NCBI GenBank assembly: GCA_965247055.1
Contig: CBDFGE010000004.1
Coordinates: forward strand, 199,895 to 263,894
Reading direction: 5' to 3'
Origin: Dehalococcoidia bacterium
GTDB lineage: Bacteria > Chloroflexota > Dehalococcoidia > Lucifugimonadales > JAGWBF01
Length of the DNA: 64,000 nucleotides
Shown here in pieces: positions 11,866 through 48,433 of the stretch. Below the pieces are notes generated by a model, which worked only from the letters and a program-made list of their open reading frames with translations, made no database searches and was not told the origin of the DNA. Each line of letters begins with the position of its first letter. The stretch's first letter is position 1. Made by a program: the position numbers and the translations under genes.

Positions 11866-11944
11866 TCTCGCTACTCTCCTCTCGGGGACCGCTCAAGCGG
11901 CAGCGTGGTACGTTGGGGACAAGGGAGGGAACTACACGCCCACA

Positions 11945-11974
11945 ATTATAATACCGCCGCGGTGCTACGAGCAA
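11945..11974 (-). promoter_or_regulatory. Candidate promoter of the LLM gene (TTGCTC - 18 nt - TATAAT on the minus strand)
   Basis: The minus-strand -35 TTGCTC lies at 11974-11969 and the -10 TATAAT at 11950-11945. This is a conspicuous AT-rich island about 80 nt upstream of ATG 11865. Confidence 0.35.
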
Positions 11975-12109
11975 CCGGTGAGAAGCTGGCGCGCCGGAGC
12001 TATAGGGGTAATGCGGGCGCTGGGGCCCCTGGGAGAGGTGCCGCGGGCGGCCGGATATTGGGTGAGTGCGGAGGCTATAGCGGTCCAGTCTGTCGGGTCG
12101 AGCCTGTGT

Positions 12110-24001: not shown

Positions 24002-24027
24002 GTTCTACCCCTTAGCGCCAGGGACCG

Positions 24028-24055
24028 CCGCGACGGGAGGGCGCGCCCGTCGCGG
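24028..24055 (-). promoter_or_regulatory. Perfect 10-bp stem hairpin 27-54 nt upstream of arlI
   Basis: CCGCGACGGG (24028-24037) pairs with CCCGTCGCGG (24046-24055) around an 8-nt loop. It lies in the 74-nt remnant of the arlH-arlI spacer. Confidence 0.3.
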
Positions 24056-24075
24056 TCCAGCTCGGAGATGGGCAT

Positions 24076-25387
24076 CCCTAGCAGGATGCTGAAAAACCTG
24101 TACCTGACGGGGTCGTTGTGTAGGTGGTATAGTCCGGGGTAGATAAACTTGGGGAGGGAGCGGGATGCGAGGAGATGTGGAAAGGCAGACCATGATTCTA
24201 AGTGCGGGGACTCCGGACCAGCTGATACCCGAAGACCACCCCATCCGGCTAATCAAACCCATGGTCGACCGGGCCTTGGCTGAGCTGTCTCCCACCTTCA
24301 GCCGCATGTACGCCAAGGTGGGACGCCCCTCCATTCCTCCCGAACACCTGCTAAAAGGATGCCTGCTGATGGGTCTCTACACCATCAGGAGCGAGCGCCA
24401 GTTCTGCGAGCGACTGCAATATGACCTGCTGTTCAAATGGTTTCTGGACCTGAACATCATGGACCCAGCCTTCGACTCCTCCACCTTTTCCAAGAACAAG
24501 ACTCGGCTATTGGACCATGAGGTGTCTGGACAATTCTTCCAAGAGGTGTTGGCCGAAGCTCAGCGCCGGAATCTGCTGTCCGATGAGCACTTCACCGTGG
24601 ATGGGACCTTGCTGGAATCTTGGGCGTCATTGAAGAGCTTCCGACCCAAAGATGGTAGAGGGCCCAGGGGAGGAGGACGCGACCCCGAGGTGGACTTTCG
24701 CGGGGAAGAAAGGAAGAACGACAGCCATGCCTCCACCACGGACCCAGAGGCTCGACTGGCGCGTAAGGGCCCTGGGAAGGAGGCCAAGCTGTGCTTTGCC
24801 GGACACGTGCTAATGGAGAACCGTAATGGCTTGGCGGTGGGGGTGTTGGTCACTGAGGCCAACGGACGGGCGGAGCGGCAGGCCGCAGTGGAACTGCTTT
24901 CCCGTTTACGAGGAGTAGGCCGGATAACGTTGGGTGGAGACAAGAACTACGACGCCAGAGCCTTCGTTGCTAGATGTGGGGAGATGAAAGTCACGCCCCA
25001 CGTGGCCCAAAATACCAAAGGCCGGTCCAGCGCCATCGATGGCAGGACAACCCGTCACCCGGGGTATGCCATCAGCCAGCGGGTGAGGAAGCGGGTGGAG
25101 GAGATCTTCGGCTGGACCAAGACGGTGGGCGGCGGGCGCAAGTTGCGTTACATCGGGGTAGCCCGCAACCAGATGTGGGCGGACCTGACGGTGGCTGCCT
25201 ACAACCTGGTCCGGATGGCCAAATTGGCTTTAAACCCGGGCTGAAGGTGGGACAAAGGCCTGATCCGGGGGTGGAGTGGCCTCCCCCGGTGGCTGAGACC
25301 TCTCCTCTATAGGGTGCATCCCTCCAAAACAACGGGAGTTAACGGTCTTTAGCCCACCTGCCGGCCTTATTTCAGCACCCTGCTAGG
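24076..25387 (+). mobile_element. IS5-family insertion sequence, copy A (1312 bp)
   Basis: By my reading it is identical to 44694-46005, and all ORF-track translations are identical. The terminal inverted repeats are CCTAGCAGG(A/G)TGCTGAAA. Both termini contain CTAG. Confidence 0.85.
24165..25244 (+). CDS. IS5-family DDE transposase
   Basis: 359 aa. The N-terminal transposase domain contains LIPEDHPIRLIKPMVD...SIPPEHLLKGCLLMGLYTIRSERQFCERLQYDLLFKWFL. The DDE region contains TVDGTLLESWAS and GDKNYD. Confidence 0.9.
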   Translation: MRGDVERQTMILSAGTPDQLIPEDHPIRLIKPMVDRALAELSPTFSRMYAKVGRPSIPPEHLLKGCLLMGLYTIRSERQFCERLQYDLLFKWFLDLNIMDPAFDSSTFSKNKTRLLDHEVSGQFFQEVLAEAQRRNLLSDEHFTVDGTLLESWASLKSFRPKDGRGPRGGGRDPEVDFRGEERKNDSHASTTDPEARLARKGPGKEAKLCFAGHVLMENRNGLAVGVLVTEANGRAERQAAVELLSRLRGVGRITLGGDKNYDARAFVARCGEMKVTPHVAQNTKGRSSAIDGRTTRHPGYAISQRVRKRVEEIFGWTKTVGGGRKLRYIGVARNQMWADLTVAAYNLVRMAKLALNPG

Positions 25388-26102
25388 CTCTAGCCCTGGA
25401 GATCGGCACGATCCTGATGCCCAACCCCGGCTCCACCTCGAAACCAGATATATTGCCTGTGACCATCTCCGCTCCCCGTATTTTGGCTACCGCAAGGGTT
25501 TTCACCATCTGGGAGCCCGACCTCTGCACCTGGAGCTTCAGATAGGCGTCACACACCGACCTGACCCTCGTCAGAATGTTCTCGTCGAAGGCATAGGAGT
25601 GCACCGTACAGATTATCACCTTCCCCTGGTCACAGAAGGCCTTGCACCTTCGGAAGAAGTCCTGGATCTGGTCGCCTCCAGCGTGGGAAACGAAGGTGGT
25701 GAGGGAGTCTACGATTACGACCCGGCACTTCTGCTGTGCCTCAATGTGCCTGGTCAGCTCTTGAAAGAGAATTCCGGGCTCTATGGAGTCCGGAGGAATT
25801 GTGACCGGATATATCTGGAGATGGTCCAAAAGAAAGTAGTCCTTTACGTCGAGTCCCAGGCTGTCCATCTGCCTTAAGAAGCTCTGGACGGTCTGCTCGG
25901 TGACGTAGATCGCCACGTCTTCCCCGGATTTAAGGGCGCCGGACAGAAGTTGCTGTGCCCAGGTGCTCTTCCCCGATGCCGCTTCTCCTTCGATCAGCAT
26001 CAGGGTGCGGTAGGGTATACCGCCCCCGATGCGCCTGTCGATCTCCTGGGTCTGCGTGGATATTACCGTGTTCTGCTGTGCCAGGCCTACGGCGCTTGTC
26101 AT
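25383..26102 (-). CDS. arlH: KaiC/RecA-like ATPase, FlaH/ArlH-like
   Basis: 239 aa. It contains IDRRIGGGIPYRTLMLIEGEAASGKSTWAQQL, and its length and C-terminus (GIRIVPISRA) resemble FlaH. Its TAG stop (25385-25383) is the CTAG at the IS terminus. Confidence 0.75.
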   Translation of the reverse strand: MTSAVGLAQQNTVISTQTQEIDRRIGGGIPYRTLMLIEGEAASGKSTWAQQLLSGALKSGEDVAIYVTEQTVQSFLRQMDSLGLDVKDYFLLDHLQIYPVTIPPDSIEPGILFQELTRHIEAQQKCRVVIVDSLTTFVSHAGGDQIQDFFRRCKAFCDQGKVIICTVHSYAFDENILTRVRSVCDAYLKLQVQRSGSQMVKTLAVAKIRGAEMVTGNISGFEVEPGLGIRIVPISRARA

Positions 26103-35520: not shown

Positions 35521-36159
35521 CTACTGGATGACGGTCAAGGTGGTGCCGGTGCCATCGTCGCCGTCTGCCTCGTCGTGGTTGTCGCCGGACTCATATGTGT
35601 AGCTTGCGTGGGTCACGTCCGTCACCTCGAAGATCGTCGAAGGCGTGCCTGCGCCGATATTCTTCGAGTCTAGCGTGCAGGTCCCGTCCGCGGCCGTTGT
35701 ACAGGAGGTCTCTGGGTTGTTGCCGGCCTCGGTCCAGGTCCCAGTGACGCTGGCGCTTTCCACAGCCGCCTCATTGTCGTCGTGGACGGTAACTGTGACC
35801 AAGGCCTTCCAGTTGCCCTGGGTCACACCATCGAGGTCTCCCACGTGCATGTTCAGATCGGGTGGGCAGGGCGTGGTGAACCCCGAGAAGGAGCCCGTCG
35901 CCGTGAGCCCGTTAGGCGTGCTTATGACCACGCTCCCCGAGGTGACCCCGGTCACGGGAAGGGACAGCTCCCCCGTTATGGCCATGGTCTCCCCCGGGTC
36001 GAAGATGCCGGGTTGGAACAGGTCGGAGGTGGAGGTGAGGGACTTGGTCCACTTGCCCGAGCTGGGTGGGCTGGCGGTGGTGTAGGTGAGGCTCTGGGAT
36101 GCGTTGTTCCCCTGGGTAAGCTGGACGATATAGTATCTTAACGGCTGTCGCCCAGTATT
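35521..36159 (-). pseudogene. Start-less T/G/S-rich beta-type protein fragment (probable remnant)
   Basis: The track gives 154 aa from ATG 35985. By my translation the frame stays open upstream to 36159 (...YYIVQLTQGNNASQSLTYTTASPPSSGKWTKSLTSTSDLFQPGIFDPGET-MAITGELS...). That stretch has no ATG/GTG/SD and no signal peptide. It begins 14 nt after the kinase stop. Confidence 0.4.
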
Positions 36160-36172
36160 TCAAGCCACACAC

Positions 36173-37354
36173 CTACTCCGCGTCGGGCGACTCCTCGTTG
36201 TTGAGAAGGAAGAGGGCGGTCTGGACCTCGGTGGGCCGGGGTGTCCCCGGCGGAACTGGCACCCTGCCGCGGATGGTGGTCCCCAGGGAAGGCCGGGACT
36301 GGATGTCCAGGGTGCCCATGAGGCGTTCGGTCCTGTCCCTGAGGTTGACCAGCCCGAAATGGCCGGTGGCGGGGCTCTCCCTGGGATTAGCGACGTCGAA
36401 GCCGGTCCCGTCGTCGGCTATGGAGAAGGCCAGCTCCGAGTCGGCCCAGGTGAGGTCCACCCGGACCTTCTTGGCCTGGGCATGCTTTATGGCGTTGGCC
36501 ACCGCCTGGAGTACCACCCTGTAGACGCCGATCTCCACGTCCTCGGGCAGCCGCTGTCTGTCGAAGCCGGTGGTCCGCAGCTCCACCTCGAGGGGATAGG
36601 GGTTGGCGATGGTGTGGCTGGCGAGGTCGGTGAGGCTGGAGTTCAGGGCCACGGCCAGCCCTCGAAGGGTCAGGGCAGGGGGAAAGATCCCCTGGACGAT
36701 CTCCCTGAGGCGCCGGTCGGTAGCCCTGAGCCTTTCGCGGAGCTCGTCCAGCGACGCCTCCATCTCGGGGGAGATACGGGCCGCCTCGCGTTTCATGAAG
36801 CCCAGCTCCACGGCCATGCTGCCCATGTCGCCCATGGTCTCGTCATGAAGCTCGGCGGCGAGGCTCTTTCTCTCCTCCTCCCTGGCCACCTCGGCGGCGT
36901 CGAAGCGTTCGACACGCCGCATCCGGAAGCTGACCGTCCTGCTCAGCTCCCAGATGAAGATGAGGGCTATGGTGGGCTCCCGCCGGGCGAACTCCTGGAA
37001 GGCCTCGCGGCTGATCCTGAGGGCGGAGGAAGGGGTCGTGGCGATGACCCTGGCGCTACGGGGGAGATTGTCGAGGAAGGCCATCTCCCCGATGACGCTG
37101 CCGGGGTGCAGCACCGCCACCCGCATCCAGCTCTTCTCCGTGGGCACCAGGACCTCGACCTCTCCTTCCAGGAGGATGTAGAGAGACGTGTCCTGGGCGC
37201 CCTCGGCGATGAGCATCTCGCCGGTCGCGACGGGAAGGGTCTCTCCCCCGGAACGAAGGGTGAGGAAGTCCTGGGACGACATCTGCCCCAGGAACTGAGG
37301 TTCCCGTTCCGCGGTTTCTTGGCCTTGGGAGGAAAGGAACGTGGAGAAGTCCAT
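36173..37354 (-). CDS. Soluble sensor histidine kinase: CAP-type cNMP-binding domain + HisKA_3 + HATPase_c
   Basis: 393 aa with no TM segment. It contains LYILLEGEVEVLVP...GSVIGEMAFLDNLPRSARVIA (phosphate-binding cassette). The H-box is SLAAELHDETMG, and the N/G boxes are VVLQAVANAIKHA, DDGTGF, GHFGLVNLRDR. Confidence 0.85.
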   Translation of the reverse strand: MDFSTFLSSQGQETAEREPQFLGQMSSQDFLTLRSGGETLPVATGEMLIAEGAQDTSLYILLEGEVEVLVPTEKSWMRVAVLHPGSVIGEMAFLDNLPRSARVIATTPSSALRISREAFQEFARREPTIALIFIWELSRTVSFRMRRVERFDAAEVAREEERKSLAAELHDETMGDMGSMAVELGFMKREAARISPEMEASLDELRERLRATDRRLREIVQGIFPPALTLRGLAVALNSSLTDLASHTIANPYPLEVELRTTGFDRQRLPEDVEIGVYRVVLQAVANAIKHAQAKKVRVDLTWADSELAFSIADDGTGFDVANPRESPATGHFGLVNLRDRTERLMGTLDIQSRPSLGTTIRGRVPVPPGTPRPTEVQTALFLLNNEESPDAE

Positions 37355-37456
37355 AGAGCACCCCCTGGTACCTGGCCACCGGCATATCCTTGCGCCGGGG
37401 ACCTTCGATAAGGACGGTTTTCCCCTCTATTCCCTGCCGGCGCGTGAAGGGAACGG

Positions 37457-38152
37457 CTAGCCGTTCCCTTCGCGCTCCAGGACGTAGGGCGTGGCCGTGA
37501 TCTGGTTGATGAAGGCCTCCACGGCCTGGTTCCGCATGGTACTGCCTTCCTGCTCCGACAGCCCCAGCTTCTGGTATATGGATGCGGCGCACTCCTCCAC
37601 CTTCTGCCTGTCCAGGTGGAGGGTCTGGGCGATGTAGTCGTCGGCATACCCTTCCGCCATGACCTCGAGGACGTTGCGCTCGGTGGCATCGAGCTGGGCC
37701 AGGACTGACCTGGACTGGCGGACGTAGAGCCTGGCCAGCTTTTGCACGATACCCGGATCGAGGACCGTCTGGCCGTTGATTACCGCTTCGACGACCCGGA
37801 TCAGCTCGCCGATGTCGTCCAGGGAGTTTTTCAGGAGGTAGGCCTTTCGCTGAGGGCCATCTCTGAAAAGCTCGGAGACGAAGGTGAGGTCGTCGTAGGC
37901 CGAGATGATCACGATGGCGATGTTGGGATTGTTGGTTATCATCCTGTGGGCGGCCTCTATGCCGTCCATCTTTGGCATACGGACGTCGAGGACGGCAACG
38001 TCGGGGTTGAGGGCCAGCGCCTTCTCCAGGGCCTCCTCTCCGTCGGACGCGACCGCTACCACCTCGAAATTGTCCTGGGTTTCCAGTATCCTCTTGTATG
38101 CCGTTCGCATGAATTGGGAGTCGTCTGCTACTAGAATTCGAAGGTTAGCCAT
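37457..38152 (-). CDS. Response regulator, NarL/FixJ family (REC + LuxR-type HTH)
   Basis: ATG 38152 (MANLRILVADD) follows AGGAGG, so the track start at 38185 is probably too long. Motifs seen: DVAVLDVRMPKMDG and C-terminal LDATERNVLEVMAEGYADDYIAQTLHLDRQKVEECAASIYQKLG. Confidence 0.9.
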   Translation of the reverse strand: MANLRILVADDSQFMRTAYKRILETQDNFEVVAVASDGEEALEKALALNPDVAVLDVRMPKMDGIEAAHRMITNNPNIAIVIISAYDDLTFVSELFRDGPQRKAYLLKNSLDDIGELIRVVEAVINGQTVLDPGIVQKLARLYVRQSRSVLAQLDATERNVLEVMAEGYADDYIAQTLHLDRQKVEECAASIYQKLGLSEQEGSTMRNQAVEAFINQITATPYVLEREGNG

Positions 38153-38262
38153 GGGGAGCCTCCTGTGGCGGTTGCCGCCGGACAAGTCTATTTTAACGCT
38201 CGACGCCGGGAAATGTCGAGGTATACTTGCCTGGAGGTACAGCTACGGGGTTGGGGGCAGGG

Positions 38263-40014
38263 CTAGGGCTGGTCGGCACTCCAGGGGACCTCATAGATGT
38301 GCTGCCTCACCGCGAACCCCTTGAGCCGCCTCCAGCCCCGGTCCACACACTCGATGTCACTGCCCCCGTCCGTCAGCTTCCGGAACAGGTCGGAGACCAG
38401 GATCTGGCCGCCGGAGGCGAGGGCCATGATCCTGGAGGCCAGGACCACGGCGTTGCCGAAGAGGTCCCCTCCCTCCTGGATGGCCTCCCCCGCGTTGATC
38501 CCGATGCGGACCCTCAGCGGCCGGTCCGGTTATTCCGTGTTGTACTGTTGCAGGCGGCGCTGTATGTCGATGGCGCAGTTGGCCGCATCCAGCGGGTGGG
38601 GGAAGGCTATCATGAAGCCGTCTCCCATAGTCTTGACCTCTGTCCCCCGGTGCTGGGCCGACAGTTCCCGGACCAAATTGTTATGTACCCGCATAAGCTT
38701 CTGGTTCTCTTCATCTCCCAGCCGGTTTAGCTGCTCCGTTGAACCCTCCAGGTCGGTAAAGAGGATGCTCACCAGCTGCCCCCGGCTCTGGGACGGCTCC
38801 TGGAGCTCAAGGCTCTCTGGGGGCCTCGATTCTCCGAGGTGTCTTGCCACCTCCACGGTCCGCTGCTCCTGCTCCCGAGGCACCTCTGCCGCTGCCAGTG
38901 GGACGGCTGCCTTGAAGGAGGTTGTCGAGGAGTTGAGGAGATCGAATACACTGTCCGATGTGCGGGGGTCGCACATCCACCTGGCGAAAAGGCTCCTGTA
39001 TTTGGTATTGGTGTGCCGCAGCCGGCTGATGGTGCGGGCCGCGCTCTGCTTCGGGAGGGAGATGTTGAGGCGGCTCTCGTAGATATGGTCGTCCCGACCC
39101 ACCTCTGTCTCTTCAGTGGGATGGGCAAGCTCCCTGTCGATCCAACGGTAGACCGAGGAAGAGGCCAGGGCGTAGCGGTCGTGTCCTCGAACGACAAGCC
39201 CCTGGTCGGCCAGCTCTTCCAGGACTGCCTGGACGTTTACATACCAGGATTCCAGCTGCTCCCATTTCCAGTAGGTCCTCTGTCCGTCCTGCTGGCCGGC
39301 GAGGAGGGTCAGGAGGCTAAGGATGGTCTTATGCTTCTCTGACGAGTGCCGCCAGGAGCTCTCCAGGTGGGGGGTGGCGGCCTCGTGGAACCTGGCTTCG
39401 AGAGAGCCAAGCCGGCTGGCCTCCTCCGGGTCCCTCTGCCACTCCTCGTACAGCAGCTCGAAGCCCATGTGGACCAGGAAGGGCAGCGTTCCCGTCAGGG
39501 CCAGCACATGGGATACCTCGGTCTGGGAGAAGGTGACGCCCGTGCCAGGCAGATATTTCTCCAGCATCTCTTCGATGTCGGCCTGGGAGAAGGGACGAAG
39601 GACGATGTTCGTGAAGATGTTAAACCAGGGGGAGCTACGCATCTGTTCGGAGCGTGCCAGACTGACCAGATCGCCACGGGTTGACGTAACGAGGGCCAGA
39701 CCGTGGTGGGTAGCGAGGGAGCGTAGACCGTAGAGGAAATCGAGTCCGTAGTTGCTGTTGTTACCCACGTTCTGGAACTCGTCCAGCAGCGCGACTATGC
39801 GTAGGCCTAGACTGTCCACGGTATCGAATAGCAGAAGAGAGGTCTTCCCGGACCGGCGTGCTCCGACGATGGAGCAGCTGCCGAAGTCGGCTGCCCCCAG
39901 CAGGGAAAAGATCTCCCTCGTTTCATCCCTTCTCCCGACAAACCTCTGCGGCTCCGAGATAGGCCTGATGTAGGTGAAAGGATTAGGACTCGGCCCGGCC
40001 GTCTCCAGGTTCAA
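38263..40014 (-). pseudogene. P-loop NTPase (Arch_ATPase/ORC-like) - wHTH - class III nucleotide cyclase fusion, interrupted by an in-frame TAA
   Basis: NTPase motifs: NPFTYIRPISEPQRFVGRRDETREIF, GARRSGKTSLL, LLDEFQNVG. The cyclase reads VSILFTDLEGST...KTMGDGFMIAF...QQYNTE-TAA(38532-38530)-PDRPLRVRIGINAGEAIQEGGDLFGNAVVLASRIMALASGGQILVS. Track ORFs 38530-40344 and 38263-38448 are in the same frame. The likely start is TTG 40014 (GAGGAG 7 nt upstream). The Arg-rich 110 aa of the track ORF overlap the upstream gene and are rejected. Confidence 0.7.
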
Positions 40015-41917
40015 GGCCCATCTCCTCGTCCGAATCCGCCCCAGCCCCTTCCTCCGTCTCCCTCTCGGCTCTCTGACTAGGGGTCTCCAGCGGGTAGTCC
40101 GAGCTGCCCAGAGGCCTGGTCCGCACCGTCGGAGTATCGCCCTCCGCCGGTGTGCTGGCTTCGGTATCCACAGGCCGCTCCTCTTCCTCGAGTTCCGCGG
40201 CCTCAGAGTCGGCTGTCTCCGGTAACGTGGCGGTGGCTCCCATGTGCAGGGGCCGCTCCTCCTCGTCCTCCTCCCCCTCTTCCCGCTCCTCCGCGTAGTC
40301 GTGGACCTCGTCCGGAGACTCCACAGAGGCGGACCTGGTTTCATCGGGACTCTGGAGCTGGTCTACGTCGCCCCCATGTTCAGGCACGCCTTCCACGGCC
40401 TCCGACTCGGAGACGGATAGGTCGGGGAACCAGCGCCGCAGTAGGGCCTCGAGCCTCTGCCAGGAGGACTCATCGGCGGGATGCACGGCCACGAGTCCGA
40501 CTCCCCCACCGGGGCGGGAGCCGTCGGGCTGCTGCATCGAGTTTGGTGCGGAGGTCTCCATATCTCCGTCCACGCCCGGTCCGGGATAAACGCACCATGC
40601 CTCCTGTACTACGGTACCGTCTCGGCCCAGGGCGTCTCGGTAGGTGTGCAACCTGTCCAGGTCGTCGTGCCAGCTGCTTCGGGTGGTGTACTGCTTGAAC
40701 TTGACCTCGAAGACGTAGCCCTTGCCCTCGGACATCAAGAACACGGCGGGGTTGATGGGGTGGTAAACGCCATCGGCAGGGTTGATAAAGGTCTCGTCGA
40801 CGGTCTCACCGCTGTACAGCATGGTAACCAGGGCATCATCCGACTCCCGCCACAATTCCAGAACAGAGGGCTGCCCTTTAGGTAGCTCCAGGGTGAGCTT
40901 GGCATCCGCGTCCTCAAAGAACAGGGTGACCCTGTCCTTCACCAGAACGAACCCCAGGTTTTTGAGGATTTCGATGACCTTGAAGAACATCCAGTACTCG
41001 TAGAGGAGCCAGGTGCGCCGTAAGGGCAGCTTGAAGACAGGATTGCTCCAGTCGAAGTTGAAGATCCTGTCGTAGTAGCGGTAGATCTCATAGATCTGGT
41101 GATAGTAGGGTCTTCTGTGGAGGTTGGAGGCCTGGCCTATAGAGCCCATAGGGGATGAGTATTTCAGGAAAGCGTACTGGAGCAGCTCACTGACACCGTG
41201 CATCAGGGTTTCCGCGTCGACCCGTACCTGCTGCGCTCCCTGGACTTCCGCCAGATTGGAGATGGTGTTCAGGTCCCTGTGCATCGAGGAGAGGAACCGA
41301 CGAATGAACCGGTTCTCGTAGGTGTTGTAGTCCACCTGAACATGGGTCTCCGAAATCTGGGAAGGGAGATACTCCACCTGCTCACCGTTTTCATCTCTTC
41401 GGGAGAAGATCCCCCTGAGATTCGGAGCCAGGCTACTGTTGGGGGCGGCCTTCTCGAATCGGTGACTCCTGGGGTGGGACATCAGCCAGTTGATGGAGCC
41501 GGGGCCCGCTTTTCTGCTCATGCTGAAATCCACGAAGACCTTCTCTCGGGTGAGCTGCTGGTTGGGGCTCCGGTCTATAAGCTGGACGAGCCGGGCCAGT
41601 TGCTGGAAGATTCCCTCGCAGTACTCCAGGAGGCCGTGGAGGGATATGGCCCTGCGAGTTTCCACCGGCATGACGCCGTACTCGTCTTGGCTGTAGATAT
41701 CCCATGCCAGGCCGAAGCTGATCTGACGGACGTAGTCCACCATCGCGATGCGGTCCTCGGGGGACAATATCTTGGTCCAGTATCCCTCACGCTCGTAGAG
41801 GAACCGCTCGACGACTTCCCGGGGATACTCCAGGAGCATGTCCAGGCTTTCCACCCGGGGAGCGAGGGTTTCAAGGAGCTCTTCGGGGGTGCGTAATGCT
41901 TCTTCTAGCTCGGTCAT
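39983..41917 (-). CDS. McrC-like / DUF2357-type PD-(D/E)xK nuclease subunit with a long acidic C-terminal tail
   Basis: 644 aa. Motifs seen: NTYENRFIRRFL and RRTWLLYEYWMFFKVIEIL. The candidate D...ExK is in NPADGVYHP...GYVFEVKFKQY. The last ~146 aa are D/E-rich and disordered. Confidence 0.6.
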   Translation of the reverse strand: MTELEEALRTPEELLETLAPRVESLDMLLEYPREVVERFLYEREGYWTKILSPEDRIAMVDYVRQISFGLAWDIYSQDEYGVMPVETRRAISLHGLLEYCEGIFQQLARLVQLIDRSPNQQLTREKVFVDFSMSRKAGPGSINWLMSHPRSHRFEKAAPNSSLAPNLRGIFSRRDENGEQVEYLPSQISETHVQVDYNTYENRFIRRFLSSMHRDLNTISNLAEVQGAQQVRVDAETLMHGVSELLQYAFLKYSSPMGSIGQASNLHRRPYYHQIYEIYRYYDRIFNFDWSNPVFKLPLRRTWLLYEYWMFFKVIEILKNLGFVLVKDRVTLFFEDADAKLTLELPKGQPSVLELWRESDDALVTMLYSGETVDETFINPADGVYHPINPAVFLMSEGKGYVFEVKFKQYTTRSSWHDDLDRLHTYRDALGRDGTVVQEAWCVYPGPGVDGDMETSAPNSMQQPDGSRPGGGVGLVAVHPADESSWQRLEALLRRWFPDLSVSESEAVEGVPEHGGDVDQLQSPDETRSASVESPDEVHDYAEEREEGEEDEEERPLHMGATATLPETADSEAAELEEEERPVDTEASTPAEGDTPTVRTRPLGSSDYPLETPSQRAERETEEGAGADSDEEMGLEPGDGRAES

Positions 41918-42075
41918 ACTGGCTTTCGTGACCCTTTCAGAATCGCTGGTGTCAAGGGCAGCTAATATCGGGGCTCCTGGAGGGGTGGGCCCGGGCAGTT
42001 AGCTTATGCGGCTCTATCGGGCTGAGATGCCGGCCAGCCCGAATAGTGGAGGGTAGTCCGGGTGCTGGGAGTAGA

Positions 42076-43431
42076 GTCCCAGGAAGTGGTGTAACAAGAG
42101 GAGAGGGTCTGGATGAAGAGAGACCACCACGTCATCCTTAGCGGGCAAAGACGAGCCTGAGAAAGGAGGACAACGGTGGTCAAGGAAAGGATGGACCTGC
42201 TTGAGCTAATGCGCAAGAGGGGAGTCGACGGTGACGTGGACTTTCTACGAGAGGCACTGAGAGTGCTGGTCGAGGAGATCATGGAGGCTGATGTGTCATC
42301 GAGGACCGGTGCTGGGTATGGAGAACGCAACCCTGAGCGGGTGACCCAGCGCAACGGGTACCGGTCTCGAGCATGGGACACTCGCGTAGGGACCATGGAG
42401 TTGCAGATACCCAAGCTCAGAGAGGGAAGCTACTTTCCGAGCCTGCTGGAGCCACGGCGTCGCAGCGAGCGAGCTCTGCTGGCGGTGATCCAGCAGGCGT
42501 ATGTGGAGGGTGTATCGACGAGGCGAGTGGATGATCTGGTCAAGGCTCTTGGGTGCGAGGGTATCTCAAAGAGCCAAGTGTCGCGTATCTGCCAGGAGCT
42601 GGACGGGGTGGTGGAGAGCTTCCTGGGTCGGCCGCTGGACGGCGGATCATATCCCTACCTGTGGCTGGACGCACTAACCCAGAAGGTCAGAGAGGCCGGT
42701 AGGATAGTCAACGTCAGCGTGGTGGTGGCGACGGCGGTCAATAGCGAGGGCAAGCGTGAGATCGTTGGGATGGACGTGGGTACCAGTGAAGACGGCGCCT
42801 TCTGGCTGGCCTTCCTGCGCTCACTGGTCGCCAGGGGCCTGGGCGGGGTGGAACTGGTGGTATCGGACGCTCATCAGGGACTCAGGGATGCCATCGCAAC
42901 TGTCTTCGGTGGGGCCAGTTGGCAGCGGTGCCGCACCCACTTCATGACCAACCTGCTCACTCGGGTCCCCAGGAGCGCTCAGCCCTGGGTGGCCACCATG
43001 GTACGCACCATCTACCAGCAGCCGTCCCCTCAGGAGGTGCATGCCCAACTCGAGCGGGTGATTGCTCAGCTCCAGGACCCGTTCCCACAGGGCGCCTCTC
43101 GACTGGACGAGGCTGGACCCGACGTCCTGGCCTTCTCCAGCTTCCCCGTCGCCCACTGGAAGAAGATCTGGTCCAACAACCCCCTGGAGCGTCTCAACAA
43201 GGAGATACGGCGCCGCACCGATGTGGTGGGCATCTTCCCTAACCGCCCAGCTGTCCGTCGGCTGGTCGGCGCCGTCCTAGCTGAGCAGCACGACGAGTGG
43301 GCCGTCGGCCGTCGATACATGACACAGGAGGTAACCACCTCCAACGAAGCTCTACCCAGAGCCGAACTCGCAGAGGCAGCGGCCTAGACGATATCAACAG
43401 GATGACGTACTCTTACACCACTCTATGGGAC
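42076..43431 (+). mobile_element. IS256-family insertion sequence (~1.36 kb)
   Basis: The imperfect terminal repeats are GTCCCAggaAGTGGTGTAA (left, 42076-) and GTCCCAtagAGTGGTGTAA (reverse complement of the right end, -43431). A mutator-type transposase lies inside. No clean 8-9-bp target duplication is seen; a 6-bp GTGCTG lies at 42062-42067 and 43438-43443. Boundaries are +/- 8 nt. Confidence 0.7.
42176..43387 (+). CDS. IS256-family (mutator-type) transposase
   Basis: 403 aa with a GTG start after AGGAGG. Motifs seen: RNGYRSRAWDTRVGTMELQIPKLREGSYFPSLLEPRRRSERAL, YLWLDALTQKVRE, VVSDAHQGLRDAI, QRCRTHFMTNLL. Confidence 0.92.
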   Translation: MVKERMDLLELMRKRGVDGDVDFLREALRVLVEEIMEADVSSRTGAGYGERNPERVTQRNGYRSRAWDTRVGTMELQIPKLREGSYFPSLLEPRRRSERALLAVIQQAYVEGVSTRRVDDLVKALGCEGISKSQVSRICQELDGVVESFLGRPLDGGSYPYLWLDALTQKVREAGRIVNVSVVVATAVNSEGKREIVGMDVGTSEDGAFWLAFLRSLVARGLGGVELVVSDAHQGLRDAIATVFGGASWQRCRTHFMTNLLTRVPRSAQPWVATMVRTIYQQPSPQEVHAQLERVIAQLQDPFPQGASRLDEAGPDVLAFSSFPVAHWKKIWSNNPLERLNKEIRRRTDVVGIFPNRPAVRRLVGAVLAEQHDEWAVGRRYMTQEVTTSNEALPRAELAEAAA

Positions 43432-43446
43432 GTGACCGTGCTGTGC

Positions 43447-44514
43447 TTACTCATAGAAGGAGACAAAGCCGTCCTCCCTGACCCTGGCCAGCATCCGGGC
43501 GACTTTCTTGGCCGACCTATGGAACAGGCACTCCTCGTACGCTGCGGTGTCCAGAAGGTAGAGGTTGCTGATGGGGGCCGGCAACTCCTCGTAGTTCCCG
43601 AGAAGGAAATAGCTCAGGAGGTCCGAAAGCACCTTCTCCAGCTGCTCCCTGGTGCCGGACAACCTGGGGAGGACCTTCTGGAGGATCTGCATGTCCAGGG
43701 CTACATACTTCTCCAGCAGCCCCTCGGAGTTTGCCATGTACTTTAGGACTTCATCTCGAACCCTATAGGCGAACTGAAGGTTCCTCTGGACCAGAATCGA
43801 GTTGACGCCCTCCAGGGTGAACAGCACGTCCTCGTCCCATTCCGGCCCTCTGGACTTCAAGAACACATCGAATATCACCTGTCGCTCGGCCCAGGTAAAG
43901 TTGTCCTGGATGCTGCCACCACCGGGTTTGTCGAAGAGGTACACCTCGTTGAACTCGATGGTGTTGGCCCGGTCCAGCACCTTCTTGCTGAACAGGTAGG
44001 TGCTCTCGTCGACGTTCACCGTGCCGGTGATGAAGAGGTTGGGCGGCAGCTCGCCCGTCTCCATTTTGCTGAGGAAGTGGCTGAAATAATGCTCTACTTT
44101 GGCCAGGTTCATCTCGTCGAGGCAGACGAAGAAGGGCTCACTCCTCACGTCCGAAGACCACCTGTAGAATTTGGAGAAGGCGGTCTCGATCTGCCTCTCC
44201 TGAATGACGTTGTAGTAACCCAGAAGATAGGTGTCGTCGGTCCAGTCAGGGGACACGGGGACAAGCAGGTAGTGACCTGCGTCGGGACCGGAGAGGGCGC
44301 TCGCCACCAGCTGGGTCAGCCCGGTCTTGCCGGTGCCGCTGACACCGGTGAGAATTACGAAAGGCTTGGTCTTGAGGGAGACGTAGTAGTCGGCTACCAC
44401 TTCTCGAGTGAAGGTGAAACCCCGCTGCTGGACGTACTGGCAGATCCAGTTGAGCAGGTCCGCGTCAGTGCGGATTTGAAGTCTCGCCGTATCCTGGGCC
44501 CGCTCTACTACCAT
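43447..44514 (-). CDS. McrB-like AAA+ (AAA_5) GTPase subunit
   Basis: 355 aa. Walker A is PFVILTGVSGTGKTGL, Walker B is FFVCLDEMNLAKVEHYFS. The NxxD-like segment is ITGTVNVDESTYLFSKKVLDRANTIEF. Confidence 0.7.
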   Translation of the reverse strand: MVVERAQDTARLQIRTDADLLNWICQYVQQRGFTFTREVVADYYVSLKTKPFVILTGVSGTGKTGLTQLVASALSGPDAGHYLLVPVSPDWTDDTYLLGYYNVIQERQIETAFSKFYRWSSDVRSEPFFVCLDEMNLAKVEHYFSHFLSKMETGELPPNLFITGTVNVDESTYLFSKKVLDRANTIEFNEVYLFDKPGGGSIQDNFTWAERQVIFDVFLKSRGPEWDEDVLFTLEGVNSILVQRNLQFAYRVRDEVLKYMANSEGLLEKYVALDMQILQKVLPRLSGTREQLEKVLSDLLSYFLLGNYEELPAPISNLYLLDTAAYEECLFHRSAKKVARMLARVREDGFVSFYE

Positions 44515-44693: not shown

Positions 44694-46005
44694 CCCTAGC
44701 AGGATGCTGAAAAACCTGTACCTGACGGGGTCGTTGTGTAGGTGGTATAGTCCGGGGTAGATAAACTTGGGGAGGGAGCGGGATGCGAGGAGATGTGGAA
44801 AGGCAGACCATGATTCTAAGTGCGGGGACTCCGGACCAGCTGATACCCGAAGACCACCCCATCCGGCTAATCAAACCCATGGTCGACCGGGCCTTGGCTG
44901 AGCTGTCTCCCACCTTCAGCCGCATGTACGCCAAGGTGGGACGCCCCTCCATTCCTCCCGAACACCTGCTAAAAGGATGCCTGCTGATGGGTCTCTACAC
45001 CATCAGGAGCGAGCGCCAGTTCTGCGAGCGACTGCAATATGACCTGCTGTTCAAATGGTTTCTGGACCTGAACATCATGGACCCAGCCTTCGACTCCTCC
45101 ACCTTTTCCAAGAACAAGACTCGGCTATTGGACCATGAGGTGTCTGGACAATTCTTCCAAGAGGTGTTGGCCGAAGCTCAGCGCCGGAATCTGCTGTCCG
45201 ATGAGCACTTCACCGTGGATGGGACCTTGCTGGAATCTTGGGCGTCATTGAAGAGCTTCCGACCCAAAGATGGTAGAGGGCCCAGGGGAGGAGGACGCGA
45301 CCCCGAGGTGGACTTTCGCGGGGAAGAAAGGAAGAACGACAGCCATGCCTCCACCACGGACCCAGAGGCTCGACTGGCGCGTAAGGGCCCTGGGAAGGAG
45401 GCCAAGCTGTGCTTTGCCGGACACGTGCTAATGGAGAACCGTAATGGCTTGGCGGTGGGGGTGTTGGTCACTGAGGCCAACGGACGGGCGGAGCGGCAGG
45501 CCGCAGTGGAACTGCTTTCCCGTTTACGAGGAGTAGGCCGGATAACGTTGGGTGGAGACAAGAACTACGACGCCAGAGCCTTCGTTGCTAGATGTGGGGA
45601 GATGAAAGTCACGCCCCACGTGGCCCAAAATACCAAAGGCCGGTCCAGCGCCATCGATGGCAGGACAACCCGTCACCCGGGGTATGCCATCAGCCAGCGG
45701 GTGAGGAAGCGGGTGGAGGAGATCTTCGGCTGGACCAAGACGGTGGGCGGCGGGCGCAAGTTGCGTTACATCGGGGTAGCCCGCAACCAGATGTGGGCGG
45801 ACCTGACGGTGGCTGCCTACAACCTGGTCCGGATGGCCAAATTGGCTTTAAACCCGGGCTGAAGGTGGGACAAAGGCCTGATCCGGGGGTGGAGTGGCCT
45901 CCCCCGGTGGCTGAGACCTCTCCTCTATAGGGTGCATCCCTCCAAAACAACGGGAGTTAACGGTCTTTAGCCCACCTGCCGGCCTTATTTCAGCACCCTG
46001 CTAGG
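44694..46005 (+). mobile_element. IS5-family insertion sequence, copy B (1312 bp), identical to copy A
   Basis: The offset from copy A is 20618 nt. It has the same termini, CCTAGCAGG...CCTGCTAGG. It lies 180 nt upstream of the McrB-like start and abuts the stop of the CoA-transferase gene. Confidence 0.85.
44783..45862 (+). CDS. IS5-family DDE transposase (identical to 24165-25244)
   Basis: The 359-aa translation is identical in the ORF track. Confidence 0.9.
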   Translation: MRGDVERQTMILSAGTPDQLIPEDHPIRLIKPMVDRALAELSPTFSRMYAKVGRPSIPPEHLLKGCLLMGLYTIRSERQFCERLQYDLLFKWFLDLNIMDPAFDSSTFSKNKTRLLDHEVSGQFFQEVLAEAQRRNLLSDEHFTVDGTLLESWASLKSFRPKDGRGPRGGGRDPEVDFRGEERKNDSHASTTDPEARLARKGPGKEAKLCFAGHVLMENRNGLAVGVLVTEANGRAERQAAVELLSRLRGVGRITLGGDKNYDARAFVARCGEMKVTPHVAQNTKGRSSAIDGRTTRHPGYAISQRVRKRVEEIFGWTKTVGGGRKLRYIGVARNQMWADLTVAAYNLVRMAKLALNPG

Positions 46006-48433
46006 GCTCCTCCCAGTCCGCCACCCCTCGCTCCTTGAAGTCGCGAATGCCGTCGTCGCTGTATCCCAGCTCCCGGAGGATGGTCCGGGTGTGCTGGCCC
46101 ATCAGGGGTCCCGGACCGGCTCTGCCTGCGGTGTGGGAGAATCTCAGCAGCGGACTGTATCGCCAGAATTTGCCCAGCCTGGGGGACTCCACCTCGGTTG
46201 TAAAGCCGTTCTCCAGAGCGTGGGTATCCTCGCTGTAGAACTGGTATGTGCCCCGGTCTTCCGCCTTGACGCAGGCGACGTCTGCATTTGTGAGGAGCTT
46301 CTCCCACTCCAGGGGCTCCCTGGTGGCGAACACCTGCCCCAGCTCCTCGGCGAGGGCGTCGTCGTTCTGCTCCCGGGACTGGCCCGTGGCGAAACGGGGG
46401 TCCTCCAGGAGGTCCGGCCGTCCCAGGGCATGGCACAGAGCCTGCCACTCCTCCTCGAAGGGGCAGGCCAGAAACACCCAGCCACCCCGGGCGGGGTATA
46501 GCCGGTAGAGGGCGTGAAGTCCGTAGCCCTGGGGGTCTGGGAGACGGCGAGGGGGCTTGCCCTCGTGCCAGAAGAAGTCGTCGGCGTTGGCGTAGGCGTT
46601 GTTCCCCAGCATAGAGGTTACGACATACTGGCCCCTGTCCGTCCGTTCCCGGGCGTAGAGCCCCAGGAGCATGCCCACGGAGTTACCCATGGAGGAGTTG
46701 TGGTCGGGGGTGCCGTCGTTGGCCTTGTCAAACATGCGGGACACCTCTGCGATGTCCTCAATAGATAGCTGTTGCTCAGGAGGCGGGACCGTGCCCCAGC
46801 CCATCTGGCTCAGGGCGCCGCCGCACACGGCCCCCGGTATGGGGTGCATGGAAGGGCGGTGGGCGTGGGGGCCGGTTGAGCCGTAGCCCGCCGCGTAGAG
46901 GTACACGAGCCTGGGGTTGATCCTGGAGAGCTGCTCGTAGCCAATACCCGTCCGCTCCGGGGCTCCCGGGCGCATGCTGTGCAGGAGGATGTCGGCCCTC
47001 TCCGCCAGCTTGTGGACGATCTCCTGGCCTTCGGGCTTTTTCAGGTCCAAGCACATCCCCTCGGTGCCGGCCATCGTCCGGTGGACCCCGAGTCCCTGCA
47101 TGGTATGCCGGGTGCGGTCACCTCCAGGGGCTTCGATGCGGATGACCCTCGCCCCCAGCTCGGCCAAGAGGGAGCATGCCAGGGGGCCGTTGATGACCGT
47201 GCCCAGGTCCAGCACGGTAATGCCCTCCAGGGGGTAGCTTGGCATGGGATGGGAGCCGTTGCCGGGGGGGGCTTTCCTGGCCGCCCCGTTTAAGCGGGCC
47301 AGGACCTCCAAGGTGTGCTGCCCGGGGTCTGGGGCTGGACCCTTGGGGGATCCGGGAGTCTCCGCCATGATCGCCAGGGGGCCGATCTGGCGCATCGTGC
47401 CCACGTGAGGGTCCTCGACCTCCCGGATGTGGCCGTTGTGCACCATCTGGGGATGGTCCATCCCGTCCTGGGCCGTCGTGTAGCGCTCCACGGCGAAATC
47501 GGGGTTCTTGTTCACGAGGATATCCAACCACTCGTCCAGGGTCTTCTCGCGGATGCGCTCAAGCATCAATCGCTCCAGGGCATCCCGGTCTTCCTCGGCG
47601 ATAGTAGGGGCCGATCTAAACCGAGGGTCTTCGTAAATGTATCCCAGGTCGAGGGTGTGCATCATGGAGCGGAAGAGGCGGTCCACCACGTTGGCCAGCT
47701 GGAGCCAGTGGCCGTCCCTGGTGCGGGCCGCCAGGTAACCCATGGGGCCGCGGCGGCCGCGCCCCAGCATCGGGTCGGGAGGAAAGGTCCCGGGGTGCTT
47801 GTGTATCATCTGTCCCAGGACCCACTCCCTGTGGTCAAAGGGCGTTATGGCCTGCATGAGGCTGGCCTCCACCTTCTGTCCCCGCCCCGTCCGGTCCCGG
47901 ACATACAGCGCCGCGATGGCGCCCCGCAGCAAGGCCATGGCCGAGGAGTGGCTGGCGCCCTGCACCACAACGTAGTTGGGGCCGTCGCGCCTGCTCTGCC
48001 CGGAAAACCACATCATCCTGCCGACCTTGGCGGCCACGACCCCCTCGTACCCTTTGTAGTGGGCGTAGGGTCCCTTGGGACCGAAGCCGGTAAGGGAGCA
48101 GTAGACCAGGTCCGGCCTCGAGGCGCTCAGCGTCTCGTAGTCGATCCCCAGGCGCGCGGTGACCCCCGGCCGGAAGCTCTCGAACACGACGTCGGCCTGC
48201 CGGGCCAGCCGCTGGGCTTTCTCCCTGCCGCCGGCGTCCTTCAGGTCCAGGATGACGCTCTTCTTGCCACGGTTCCACTGGATGGCGCCGGGCCAGTCGC
48301 GGAAGGGGTCTCCCCCCGGGGGCTCCACCTTTATGACCTCGGCGCCGAAGTCGGACATCACCATGGTAGCGATGGACCCGGGCATGCCCCGGGTGAAGTC
48401 CAGCACGCTGATGCCCTCAAAGATCTGTGCCAT
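46001..48433 (-). CDS. Tandem-fused family III CoA-transferase (two CaiB/BaiF-like modules)
   Basis: 810 aa. Module 1 reads FEGISVLDFTRGMPGSIATMVMSDFGAEVIKVEPPGGDPFR. Module 2, from about residue 400, reads LEGITVLDLGTVINGPLACSLLAELGARVIRIEAPGGDRTR. The TAG stop (46003-46001) coincides with the IS-terminal CTAG. Confidence 0.8.
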   Translation of the reverse strand: MAQIFEGISVLDFTRGMPGSIATMVMSDFGAEVIKVEPPGGDPFRDWPGAIQWNRGKKSVILDLKDAGGREKAQRLARQADVVFESFRPGVTARLGIDYETLSASRPDLVYCSLTGFGPKGPYAHYKGYEGVVAAKVGRMMWFSGQSRRDGPNYVVVQGASHSSAMALLRGAIAALYVRDRTGRGQKVEASLMQAITPFDHREWVLGQMIHKHPGTFPPDPMLGRGRRGPMGYLAARTRDGHWLQLANVVDRLFRSMMHTLDLGYIYEDPRFRSAPTIAEEDRDALERLMLERIREKTLDEWLDILVNKNPDFAVERYTTAQDGMDHPQMVHNGHIREVEDPHVGTMRQIGPLAIMAETPGSPKGPAPDPGQHTLEVLARLNGAARKAPPGNGSHPMPSYPLEGITVLDLGTVINGPLACSLLAELGARVIRIEAPGGDRTRHTMQGLGVHRTMAGTEGMCLDLKKPEGQEIVHKLAERADILLHSMRPGAPERTGIGYEQLSRINPRLVYLYAAGYGSTGPHAHRPSMHPIPGAVCGGALSQMGWGTVPPPEQQLSIEDIAEVSRMFDKANDGTPDHNSSMGNSVGMLLGLYARERTDRGQYVVTSMLGNNAYANADDFFWHEGKPPRRLPDPQGYGLHALYRLYPARGGWVFLACPFEEEWQALCHALGRPDLLEDPRFATGQSREQNDDALAEELGQVFATREPLEWEKLLTNADVACVKAEDRGTYQFYSEDTHALENGFTTEVESPRLGKFWRYSPLLRFSHTAGRAGPGPLMGQHTRTILRELGYSDDGIRDFKERGVADWEEP

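What the first reader, a model, noticed from the sequence alone, without database searches (positions are those of the whole stretch)
36173..40014. Cyclase plus cNMP-receptor kinase plus LuxR regulator, coupled to a McrC-like nuclease: a Pycsar-like signal/receptor pair with a two-component output
The minus-strand gene order is as follows. First the McrC-like nuclease (41917->39983), then a P-loop NTPase-wHTH-class III cyclase fusion (40014->38263). Next a REC-LuxR regulator (38152->37457), then a soluble histidine kinase whose only input domain is a CAP-type cNMP-binding domain (37354->36173). Seen directly in the NTPase: NPFTYIRPISEPQRFVGRRDE, GARRSGKTSLL, LLDEFQ. Seen in the cyclase core: VSILFTDLEGST, KTMGDGFMIAF, RIGINAGEAI, GNAVVLASR. 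Seen in the kinase: GEMAFLDNLPRSARVIA, followed by an ELHDE H-box. The best cyclase start (TTG 40014, GAGGAG 7 nt upstream) lies 32 nt inside the nuclease gene, so the signalling genes look co-translated with a restriction-like module. The block is flanked and interrupted by IS copies. Established knowledge: Pycsar defence pairs a class III-type cyclase with an effector carrying a cNMP-binding domain, and ORC/STAND-like NTPases often act as infection sensors. I do not know of a described system in which a cNMP receptor outputs through a phosphorelay to a LuxR-type regulator and sits next to a McrBC-like nuclease. The alternative is ordinary cAMP/cGMP housekeeping signalling that merely neighbours a restriction system.
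Basis: partly seen in the sequence, partly recalled or inferred. Interest (0 to 1): 0.8.

Follow-up and report, generated by a model that had tools for sequence, protein, structure and literature searches.

The report
Decayed McrBC–STAND-cyclase–cAMP kinase gene cluster

Summary

The cyclase gene is a pseudogene in this window. It has an in-frame TAA (38530-38532) inside the cyclase domain. It also has a 225-bp in-frame deletion that removes the NTPase core between Walker A and Walker B. Two recent IS insertions lie around mcrB.

Across relatives, the unit that stays together is McrB-McrC-cyclase. It forms one clade, seen at 6 loci in at least 3 genomic settings. The regulator/kinase pair occurs only in the window's subclade and seems to have its own promoter.

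Other clades of the cyclase fusion lack McrBC. They often sit beside other cNMP receptors, such as Crp-type regulators or an ABC ATPase.

McrB carries the NxD signature. In this clade McrC has lost the catalytic Asp of the PD motif.

The Pycsar label is not supported. The cyclase has purine-type specificity residues, there is no killing effector, and the neighbours are housekeeping genes.

Closely related strains carry different inactivating lesions. No sampled strain has both an intact cyclase and an intact kinase. A defence role is possible but unproven.

The parts
36173..37354 (-). Soluble histidine kinase (393 aa) with a CAP-type cNMP-binding input, HisKA_3 and HATPase_c. It is intact in this window.
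   Evidence: Pfam. The phosphate-binding cassette GEMAFLDNLPRSARVIA and the H-box ELHDE are present. This is the only strain in its 90% cluster with the full 393-aa form. Most others end at residue 255 through GAG->TAG.
37447..37470 (-). Perfect 24-nt palindrome (hairpin) whose loop holds the regulator's stop codon.
   Evidence: Found. RNA fold -36.7 kcal/mol, z -4.6. L001 carries two changes compensated in both arms.
37457..38152 (-). NarL/LuxR-type response regulator (231 aa): REC plus GerE HTH.
   Evidence: Pfam. NCBIfam finds NarL/MctR-like matches below the equivalog cut-offs.
38190..38219 (-). Promoter-like site (TCGACA-18-TAAAAT) between the cyclase stop and the regulator start.
   Evidence: Consensus scan gives 10 of 12 matches. 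Both hexamers are conserved in L003 while the flanking sequence has diverged.
38263..40014 (-). Pseudogene of an nSTAND2 NTPase-(winged helix)-class III adenylate cyclase fusion. It carries a TAA at 38530-38532 and a 225-bp deletion junction near 39832.
   Evidence: The gene call on the source contig is 494 aa (P0131). The intact orthologs are 658 aa.
39983..41917 (-). McrC-like protein (644 aa): DUF2357, a PD-(D/E)xK fold and an acidic disordered tail. The PD Asp is replaced by Ala391.
   Evidence: Pfam. An AF2 model (pLDDT 76) has E. coli McrC chains as its top three PDB fold matches (E 9.6e-07).
42068..43437 (+). IS256-family insertion (Transposase_mut, ORF 42176-43387), 9 nt after the mcrB stop. 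It separates mcrB from mcrC.
   Evidence: Pfam 2.2e-134. It is absent from the 99.4%-identical L001.
43447..44514 (-). McrB-like AAA+ GTPase (355 aa) with the NxD(E) signature and no DNA-reading domain.
   Evidence: AAA_5. PADLOC PDC-M26A 1.7e-47. hhalign to E. coli McrB gives 95.6% probability, with NVDE aligned to NTAD. The motifs are invariant in the orthologs.
44700..46002 (+). IS5-family insertion (DUF772 plus DDE_Tnp_1, ORF 44783-45862), 186 nt upstream of mcrB, flanked by CTAG.
   Evidence: A second copy, 99.9% identical, lies at 24076-25390.

Best explanation
The window holds a decaying copy of a rare five-gene cluster that, on present sampling, is specific to Chloroflexota. The cluster is built from two transcription units.

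Unit 1 is mcrB-mcrC-cyclase. McrB is an AAA+ GTPase of the NxD branch without a DNA-reading domain. McrC keeps the McrB-contacting DUF2357 domain and the PD-(D/E)xK fold, but lacks the first catalytic Asp. The third gene overlaps the end of mcrC and encodes an nSTAND2 NTPase fused to a class III, purine-type (probably adenylate) cyclase.

Unit 2 is a NarL/LuxR regulator plus a soluble kinase gated by a cyclic-nucleotide-binding domain. It is found only in the window's subclade and has its own promoter-like site.

Inferred mechanism in intact relatives: the STAND module, possibly together with McrBC, senses a trigger and oligomerises. This brings cyclase domains together as active dimers, which make cAMP. 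The cAMP binds the kinase's CAP domain, the kinase phosphorylates the regulator, and transcription changes.

In this window the first step is abolished. The cyclase gene has lost its NTPase core and is cut by a stop codon, and an IS separates mcrB from mcrC. The kinase/regulator pair is intact and could still read cAMP made by other cyclases.

Shown: the domains, the lesions, the gene linkage and the motif states. Inferred: the nucleotide made, the signalling chain, any defence role, and whether McrBC acts as sensor or effector.
For: - Domains.
- Lesions in the window.
- The McrB-McrC-cyclase trio is seen in the window species (L001/L002), L003, L091, L004, L005 and L092. These cover three or more different flanking contexts.
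- In an NJ tree these cyclases form a single clade.
- The McrC/cyclase reading frames overlap in L001, L003 and L091.
- McrB has the NxD motif and is homologous to E. coli McrB.
- The McrC fold matches E. coli McrC, but the PD Asp is lost across the whole clade.
- The cyclase is closest to the adenylate cyclase Ma1120 and carries the Lys/Asp pair.
- cNMP-binding genes are enriched next to the family: 5 of 9 contexts against 1 of 45, p = 2e-4. After collapsing related contexts it is 3 of 7, p = 0.006.
- Those receptors have different outputs: a kinase here, Crp-type regulators in L090 and L007, and an ABC ATPase in L086.
- The promoter-like hexamers upstream of the regulator are conserved in L003.
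Against: - No biochemical data exist for any member of the family.
- The McrBC link rests on a single clade, so it reflects one evolutionary event.
- The regulator/kinase pair is absent from L091, L004 and L005, so it is not part of the core.
- Two McrBC loci of this family lack the cyclase (L093, L094).
- Within the window's own species, no sampled strain has both an intact cyclase and an intact kinase. This argues that the chain is not under current selection there.
- Many of the related contigs are low-coverage long-read assemblies, so small frameshifts in them may be sequencing errors.
- The canonical transition-state Asn of class III cyclases is Val in this family, and Ala in Ma1120.
Confidence: 0.6

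Rival explanations
1. This is ordinary cAMP housekeeping signalling. The STAND-cyclase and the cAMP-gated kinase/regulator are regulatory genes, and the McrBC-like genes are a neighbouring, unrelated and degenerate restriction remnant.
For: - The kinase architecture occurs in about 80 clusters of Chloroflexota, far more than the roughly 20 clusters of the cyclase fusion.
- Clades of the fusion without McrBC sit among housekeeping genes, next to Crp-type regulators.
- The flanking genes here are a CoA-transferase and nusA-infB, which is not a defence island.
- The regulator/kinase pair seems to have its own promoter.
- The McrC catalytic Asp is lost.
Against: - McrC and the cyclase overlap by 32 nt, and the overlap is conserved.
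- The trio travels together into different genomic settings at 49-58% identity.
- McrB is well conserved, at 65-72% identity with all its motifs invariant. That is not what a decaying remnant looks like.
Confidence: 0.25
2. This is a Pycsar-like abortive-infection system. On infection the cyclase makes a cyclic (pyrimidine) nucleotide, which activates a cNMP-binding effector, with McrBC as an added restriction arm.
For: - PADLOC domain-level hits: the kinase CAP domain to PycTIR (2.1e-18), and the cyclase to PycC (4.7e-05).
- nSTAND2 NTPases have been predicted to act in counter-invader systems (PMC8195603).
- The McrB-like protein hits the PADLOC candidate PDC-M26A (1.7e-47).
Against: - The PycTIR hit covers only the shared CAP domain, and the PycC hit is marginal beside Pfam Guanylate_cyc at 2.2e-18.
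- The cyclase has the Lys/Asp purine-type pair and is closest to an adenylate cyclase.
- There is no TIR, transmembrane or other killing domain. The outputs are a kinase and LuxR regulator, Crp-type regulators or an ABC ATPase.
- The receptor pair is missing from most loci that carry the trio.
Confidence: 0.05
3. The whole cluster is a non-functional relic in this lineage, and the conserved arrangement reflects shared ancestry only.
For: - Different inactivating lesions occur in near-identical strains. The window has the cyclase deletion and the TAA. Others have kinase E256* in at least 6 contigs, a 573-bp loss of HATPase_c, and a McrC split in L001/L002.
- IS elements interrupt the locus here and in L005.
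Against: - Proteins at 49-72% identity keep their motifs and lengths across distant members.
- The trio is found in non-syntenic settings.
Confidence: 0.1

Closest known systems
NxD-branch McrBC systems (CoCoNuT relatives; Bell et al. 2024, eLife, PMC11090510)
   Same: - McrB has the shortened NxD(E) signature.
- McrC has DUF2357 and a PD-(D/E)xK fold with catalytic replacements.
- A downstream gene overlaps McrC.
- The paper notes that two-component genes are frequent in operons of this branch.
   Different: - There are no coiled coils, HEPN domains, helicases or methyltransferases here.
- The overlapping third gene is a STAND NTPase-adenylate cyclase. The paper mentions 'cyclase' only for RtcA, the RNA 3'-phosphate cyclase.
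- This McrB is a bare 355-aa AAA+ domain.
Pycsar (PycC cyclase plus a cNMP-binding effector)
   Same: A class III-fold cyclase is encoded near a protein with a CAP-type cNMP-binding domain.
   Different: - The specificity residues are purine-type.
- The receptor drives a phosphorelay rather than a TIR or transmembrane killer.
- It is not a two-gene operon, and the genes do not lie in a defence island.
- The PADLOC hits are domain-level only.
Classical cAMP-CRP regulation and the cNMP-gated sensor proteins of Chloroflexota
   Same: A cyclase lies beside a cNMP-binding transcriptional receptor. Sister clades of the fusion have Crp-type regulators downstream.
   Different: The cyclase is driven by a STAND NTPase module. 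In one clade it is welded to McrBC-like genes.
Three-gene McrBC relatives LlaI/LlaJI and BsuMI
   Same: An McrB-like motor without its own reader domain works with an McrC-like partner and a third, separately encoded component (abstract of bioRxiv 10.64898/2026.08.31.748284).
   Different: There the third protein is a small DNA-binding module and the nuclease is active. Here it is a protein of about 650 aa, a STAND NTPase fused to a cyclase.
Mycobacterial multidomain STAND cyclases (Rv0386 type: cyclase-ATPase-TPR-LuxR; from my own knowledge, not tested here)
   Same: A class III cyclase is fused to a STAND-type NTPase and coupled to a LuxR-type DNA-binding output.
   Different: - The domain order is reversed there, with the cyclase at the N-terminus.
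- The LuxR domain is in the same polypeptide.
- There is no McrBC and no cNMP-gated kinase.

Membership tests
Pycsar | The cyclase belongs to the PycC families and makes a pyrimidine cyclic nucleotide. | tested here: not met
   The best PADLOC PycC hit is 4.7e-05 (20.9 bits), against Pfam Guanylate_cyc at 2.2e-18. The Lys/Asp purine pair is present, and the closest solved structure is the adenylate cyclase Ma1120. The product itself cannot be tested with these tools.
Pycsar | An adjacent effector joins a cNMP-binding domain to a cell-killing domain (TIR, transmembrane or similar). | tested here: not met
   The receptor is cNMP_binding-HisKA_3-HATPase_c. The PycTIR hit covers only residues 35-146, which is the CAP domain.
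McrBC (type IV restriction), NxD branch | McrB-like AAA+ GTPase with Walker A, Walker B and the Nx(x)D signature. | tested here: met
   GVSGTGKT, LDEMN and GTVNVDE are invariant in four orthologs. hhalign to E. coli McrB gives 95.6% probability.
McrBC (type IV restriction), NxD branch | McrC partner with the DUF2357 domain and the McrC fold. | tested here: met
   DUF2357 1.7e-11. The top three PDB fold matches of the AF2 model are E. coli McrC chains.
McrBC (type IV restriction), NxD branch | Complete PD-(D/E)xK catalytic triad in McrC. | tested here: not met
   The PD Asp is Ala, Thr, Ser or Val in all five clade members, and Asp in the 29 other relatives aligned. The Lys is also lost in P0124 and changed to Arg in P0288.
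McrBC (type IV restriction), NxD branch | A target-reading domain on McrB. | tested here: not met
   The 355-aa protein has only the AAA_5 region. Its orthologs are 353-356 aa.
STAND NTPase (nSTAND2) | Contiguous P-loop core with Walker A and Walker B, plus a profile match. | tested here: not met
   The window copy matches nSTAND2 only from profile position 112 and lacks 75 residues between the two motifs. The intact orthologs do meet the feature.
Class III nucleotidyl cyclase | Intact catalytic domain with the metal-binding Asp pair, the specificity pair and the Arg. | tested here: not met
   The residues are present in the sequence (FTD, GDG, K in VKTMGDG, D in GGDLFG, R in ASR). However, a TAA at 38530-38532 splits the domain. 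The canonical Asn is Val across the family. The orthologs are intact.
NarL/LuxR two-component system | HisKA_3 H-box and HATPase_c in the kinase; REC with its acidic pocket and a GerE HTH in the regulator. | tested here: met
   Pfam. NCBIfam finds partial NarQ/NarX and NarL/MctR-like matches. Phosphotransfer itself is not testable here.
CAP/CRP-type cNMP-binding domain | Phosphate-binding cassette with G-E...R-[ST]-A. | tested here: met
   GEMAFLDNLPRSARVIA is in the sequence. Pfam cNMP_binding 7.9e-20. Ligand identity is not testable here.

The most novel reading that the evidence does not exclude
In this clade the McrBC machinery has been repurposed. Its nuclease site is disabled, and the GTPase/adaptor pair works with a STAND NTPase as a sensor whose output is a burst of cAMP rather than DNA cleavage. 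The signal is then read by transcriptional receptors: the cNMP-gated kinase and LuxR regulator here, and Crp-type regulators elsewhere. That would amount to a non-suicidal, transcription-level alarm derived from a type IV restriction system.
Probability: 0.15. Interest if true: 0.8.

Novelty: new variant of a known kind. Interest (0 to 1): 0.45.

Why it matters
McrBC systems are usually thought of as nucleases. The NxD branch is known to have replaced or supplemented the nuclease with other effectors.

A conserved operon that joins such a module, with a disabled nuclease site, to a STAND-driven adenylate cyclase would add a second-messenger output to this family. It would link restriction-type machinery to cAMP signalling, and I found no paper describing that link.

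The work also gives a concrete, testable set of intact orthologs. For this particular window the practical message is more sober: the cyclase is a pseudogene and the locus is decaying. Annotating it as a working Pycsar-like system would be wrong.

Tried and rejected
- An AF2 model of McrC from an 8-sequence alignment had pLDDT 43 and was discarded. A 34-sequence alignment gave pLDDT 76, and that model was used.
- hhalign of the shallow McrC profile against E. coli McrC found nothing. phmmer against PDB sequences also found nothing for McrC.
- The genome-contig scan picked generic cyclase motifs, so 78 of its 80 loci were unrelated cyclases. They were reused as a background set.
- The metagenome scan with the family-specific linker motif returned a single 2.7-kb contig.
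- P0010 could not be located on any contig.
- No shared operator-like inverted repeat turned up in the promoter regions.
- The ORF at 21061-22272 has the same length as the IS256 transposase, but it has no Pfam match and no DNA similarity to it, so it is not a second copy.
- Stop-codon read-through or recoding of the TAA was considered and rejected. The orthologs have CAA at that position, and nothing else suggests recoding.
- Literature searches for STAND-cyclase-McrBC combinations and for cNMP-gated HisKA_3 kinases found no description.

Full report
**Observation.** Pfam confirms each domain.
- The 393-aa protein at 36173-37354 has cNMP_binding (7.9e-20), HisKA_3 (3.6e-08) and HATPase_c (3.4e-12).
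- The protein at 37457-38152 has Response_reg (8.3e-22) and GerE (6.9e-05).
- The protein at 39983-41917 has DUF2357 (1.7e-11) and PDDEXK_7 (5.3e-09).
- The protein at 43447-44514 has AAA_5.
- The cyclase fusion matches nSTAND2 (5.4e-14). Read through its stop, it matches Guanylate_cyc (2.2e-18).
- The TTG at 40014, with GAGGAG 7 nt upstream, lies 32 nt inside the McrC ORF.

The fusion is not an open gene.
- A TAA at 38530-38532 lies in frame between 'QQYNTE' and 'PDRPLRVRIGINAGEAI'.
- The nSTAND2 match starts only at profile position 112, while an AAA_16 match covers profile positions 1-41.
- The alignment with homologs shows that 75 residues are missing between GKTSLL and LFDTVD, which is the whole stretch between Walker A and Walker B.

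**Comparison with a near-identical strain.** P0001 (658 aa, 98% identical) lies on a 2.64-Mb contig, fetched as L001, with the same gene order between a CoA-transferase gene and nusA. The two DNAs are 99.3-99.6% identical.
- Specific to the window: an IS5-family element at 44700-46002, an IS256-family element at 42068-43437 (9 nt after the mcrB stop), the 225-bp deletion at about 39832, and CAA->TAA.
- Specific to L001: GAG->TAG at kinase codon 256, one extra G in a G run, a deletion of about 573 bp that removes HATPase_c, and a split McrC.

**Population picture.** The cluster members show that the window comes from a 438,253-bp contig. It is the only contig with the 494-aa truncated cyclase, and the only one with the full 393-aa kinase. 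Three other contigs have the intact 658-aa cyclase. At least six contigs have the kinase ending at residue 255. No sampled strain has both partners intact.

**Which genes belong together.** The contexts of more distant homologs were read.
- McrB (353-356 aa), McrC and the cyclase fusion occur together on one strand in L003 (58% identity), L091 (56%), L092 (56%), L004 (49%) and L005 (49%). They lie next to nusA, or in two or three unrelated settings.
- In an NJ tree these cyclases form one clade (no support values were computed).
- The regulator/kinase pair is present only in the window species and L003. L091, in the same nusA setting, goes straight from the cyclase to nusA.
- Two McrBC loci of this family lack the cyclase (L093, L094).
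- Sister clades of the fusion lack McrBC (L086, L088, L089, L090, L007).
- A promoter-like site, TCGACA-18-TAAAAT, lies between the cyclase and the regulator. Its hexamers are conserved in L003 while the surrounding sequence has diverged. The pair is therefore probably a separate transcription unit.

**Signal and receptor.** A single HMM of the CAP domain was run over all fetched loci.
- It finds a cNMP-binding ORF within 4 kb downstream in 5 of 9 contexts of the fusion family.
- It finds one in 1 of 45 generic cyclase loci with comparable flanks (p = 2e-4).
- After collapsing related contexts the figures are 3 of 7, p = 0.006.
- The receptors differ: the kinase here, Crp-type regulators in L090 and L007, and an ABC ATPase in L086.
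- This supports a functional pairing of the cyclase with local cNMP receptors, but their outputs are regulatory.
- The kinase architecture itself is common in Chloroflexota, at about 80 clusters with 33-74% identity.

**The cyclase.** Its closest solved structure is the adenylate cyclase Ma1120 (6e-33). It has the two metal-binding Asp residues, the Lys/Asp pair typical of ATP-specific enzymes, and the catalytic Arg. The canonical Asn is Val in the whole family, and Ala in Ma1120. The PADLOC PycC hits are marginal, and the kinase's PycTIR hit covers only the CAP domain.

**The McrBC part.**
- McrB aligns to the E. coli McrB GTPase domain at 95.6% probability, with NVDE opposite NTAD. Walker A, Walker B and N-x-D-E are invariant in the orthologs.
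- This places it in the NxD branch defined by Bell et al. They report that this branch has unusual McrC partners and frequent two-component genes in the same operon. Where the McrC nuclease is inactive, they find an effector gene that often overlaps it (PMC11090510).
- An exhaustive profile search found 775 relatives of this McrC, but only a handful of close ones.
- In a 34-sequence alignment, the 29 distant relatives all have P-D...(D)-x-K. The five members of the cyclase-linked clade have P-[A/T/S/V] instead, and two of them have also lost the Lys.
- An AF2 model (pLDDT 76) matches E. coli McrC chains first (E 9.6e-07).
- So the fold and the McrB-binding domain are kept, but the nuclease site is probably disabled. 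Here the overlapping downstream gene is the STAND-cyclase.

**Interpretation.** The best reading is a two-unit cluster: an McrB-McrC-STAND-cyclase operon, plus a lineage-specific cAMP-gated two-component pair.
- The proposed chain is trigger, STAND oligomerisation, cyclase dimerisation, cAMP, kinase, regulator. It is inferred from the known behaviour of STAND NTPases, class III cyclases, CAP domains and NarL-type systems. Nothing in it has been measured.
- A defence role is suggested by three things: the nSTAND2 family (PMC8195603), the McrBC ancestry, and the PADLOC candidate hit for McrB.
- Against a defence role are the housekeeping neighbours, the regulatory outputs, and the decay seen in this species.

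**Novelty.** I found no paper describing a STAND-cyclase joined to McrBC, or a cNMP-gated HisKA_3 kinase. The arrangement is a new variant within the known NxD McrBC diversity, and the copy in this window is non-functional at its first step.

Noticed in passing
window 37447-37470; L001 12770-12795: A perfect 24-nt palindrome sits at the regulator's stop codon, which lies in the loop. Its RNA fold is -36.7 kcal/mol (z -4.6). In the 99.4%-identical strain L001, two positions differ and both are compensated in the other arm (-40.8 kcal/mol, z -6.7). No U-run follows, so it is not a standard terminator. It is not seen in L003.
   Followed up: partly
window 36173-40014 compared with strains in the same 90% clusters (P0128-P0168): The decay is reciprocal. 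The window strain keeps the full kinase but has a dead cyclase. Other strains keep the 658-aa cyclase but have the kinase cut at residue 255. The strains with the intact cyclase also have McrC split into 215 and 433 aa. No sampled strain has all parts intact.
   Followed up: partly
window 24076-25390 and 44694-46009: Two copies of the same IS5-family element are 99.9% identical over 1316 bp. The copy at 44700-46002 is flanked by CTAG and abuts the CoA-transferase stop codon (810 aa here, 817 aa in L001).
   Followed up: partly
L005 7826-9094; L007 about 11270-12370; L086 12139-13464: IS elements or other insertions interrupt or abut this gene set in several relatives. McrC is split by an IS in L005. 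The cyclase fusion is interrupted by about 1.1 kb in L007. An IS lies between the cyclase and the cNMP-ABC gene in L086.
   Followed up: no
L004 10001-12202 (P0004, 733 aa): This ortholog of the cyclase fusion carries an internal insert of about 74 aa that looks like a tandem duplication of the segment around 'RSSPW.NIF...PFS'.
   Followed up: no
L007 16063-17403: A gene fusing an N6/N4 DNA methylase to an HNH nuclease lies about 3 kb downstream of the cyclase fusion in L007, just after the two cNMP-binding genes.
   Followed up: no
window 35521-35985: A small ORF (154 aa) lies between the kinase and nusA and has a weak Big_1 (Ig-like) match. L001 has lost its start in the 573-bp deletion. L003 has archaeal-type flagellin/pilin-like genes at this position.
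   Followed up: no
window 59135-63625: A 1496-aa ORF carries BACON_2 and several Ig-like domain matches, so it is probably a large surface protein.
   Followed up: no
window 22160-26102: A T2SSE-type secretion ATPase (22160-24001) and a KaiC-like ATPase (25383-26102) flank the second IS5 copy.
   Followed up: no
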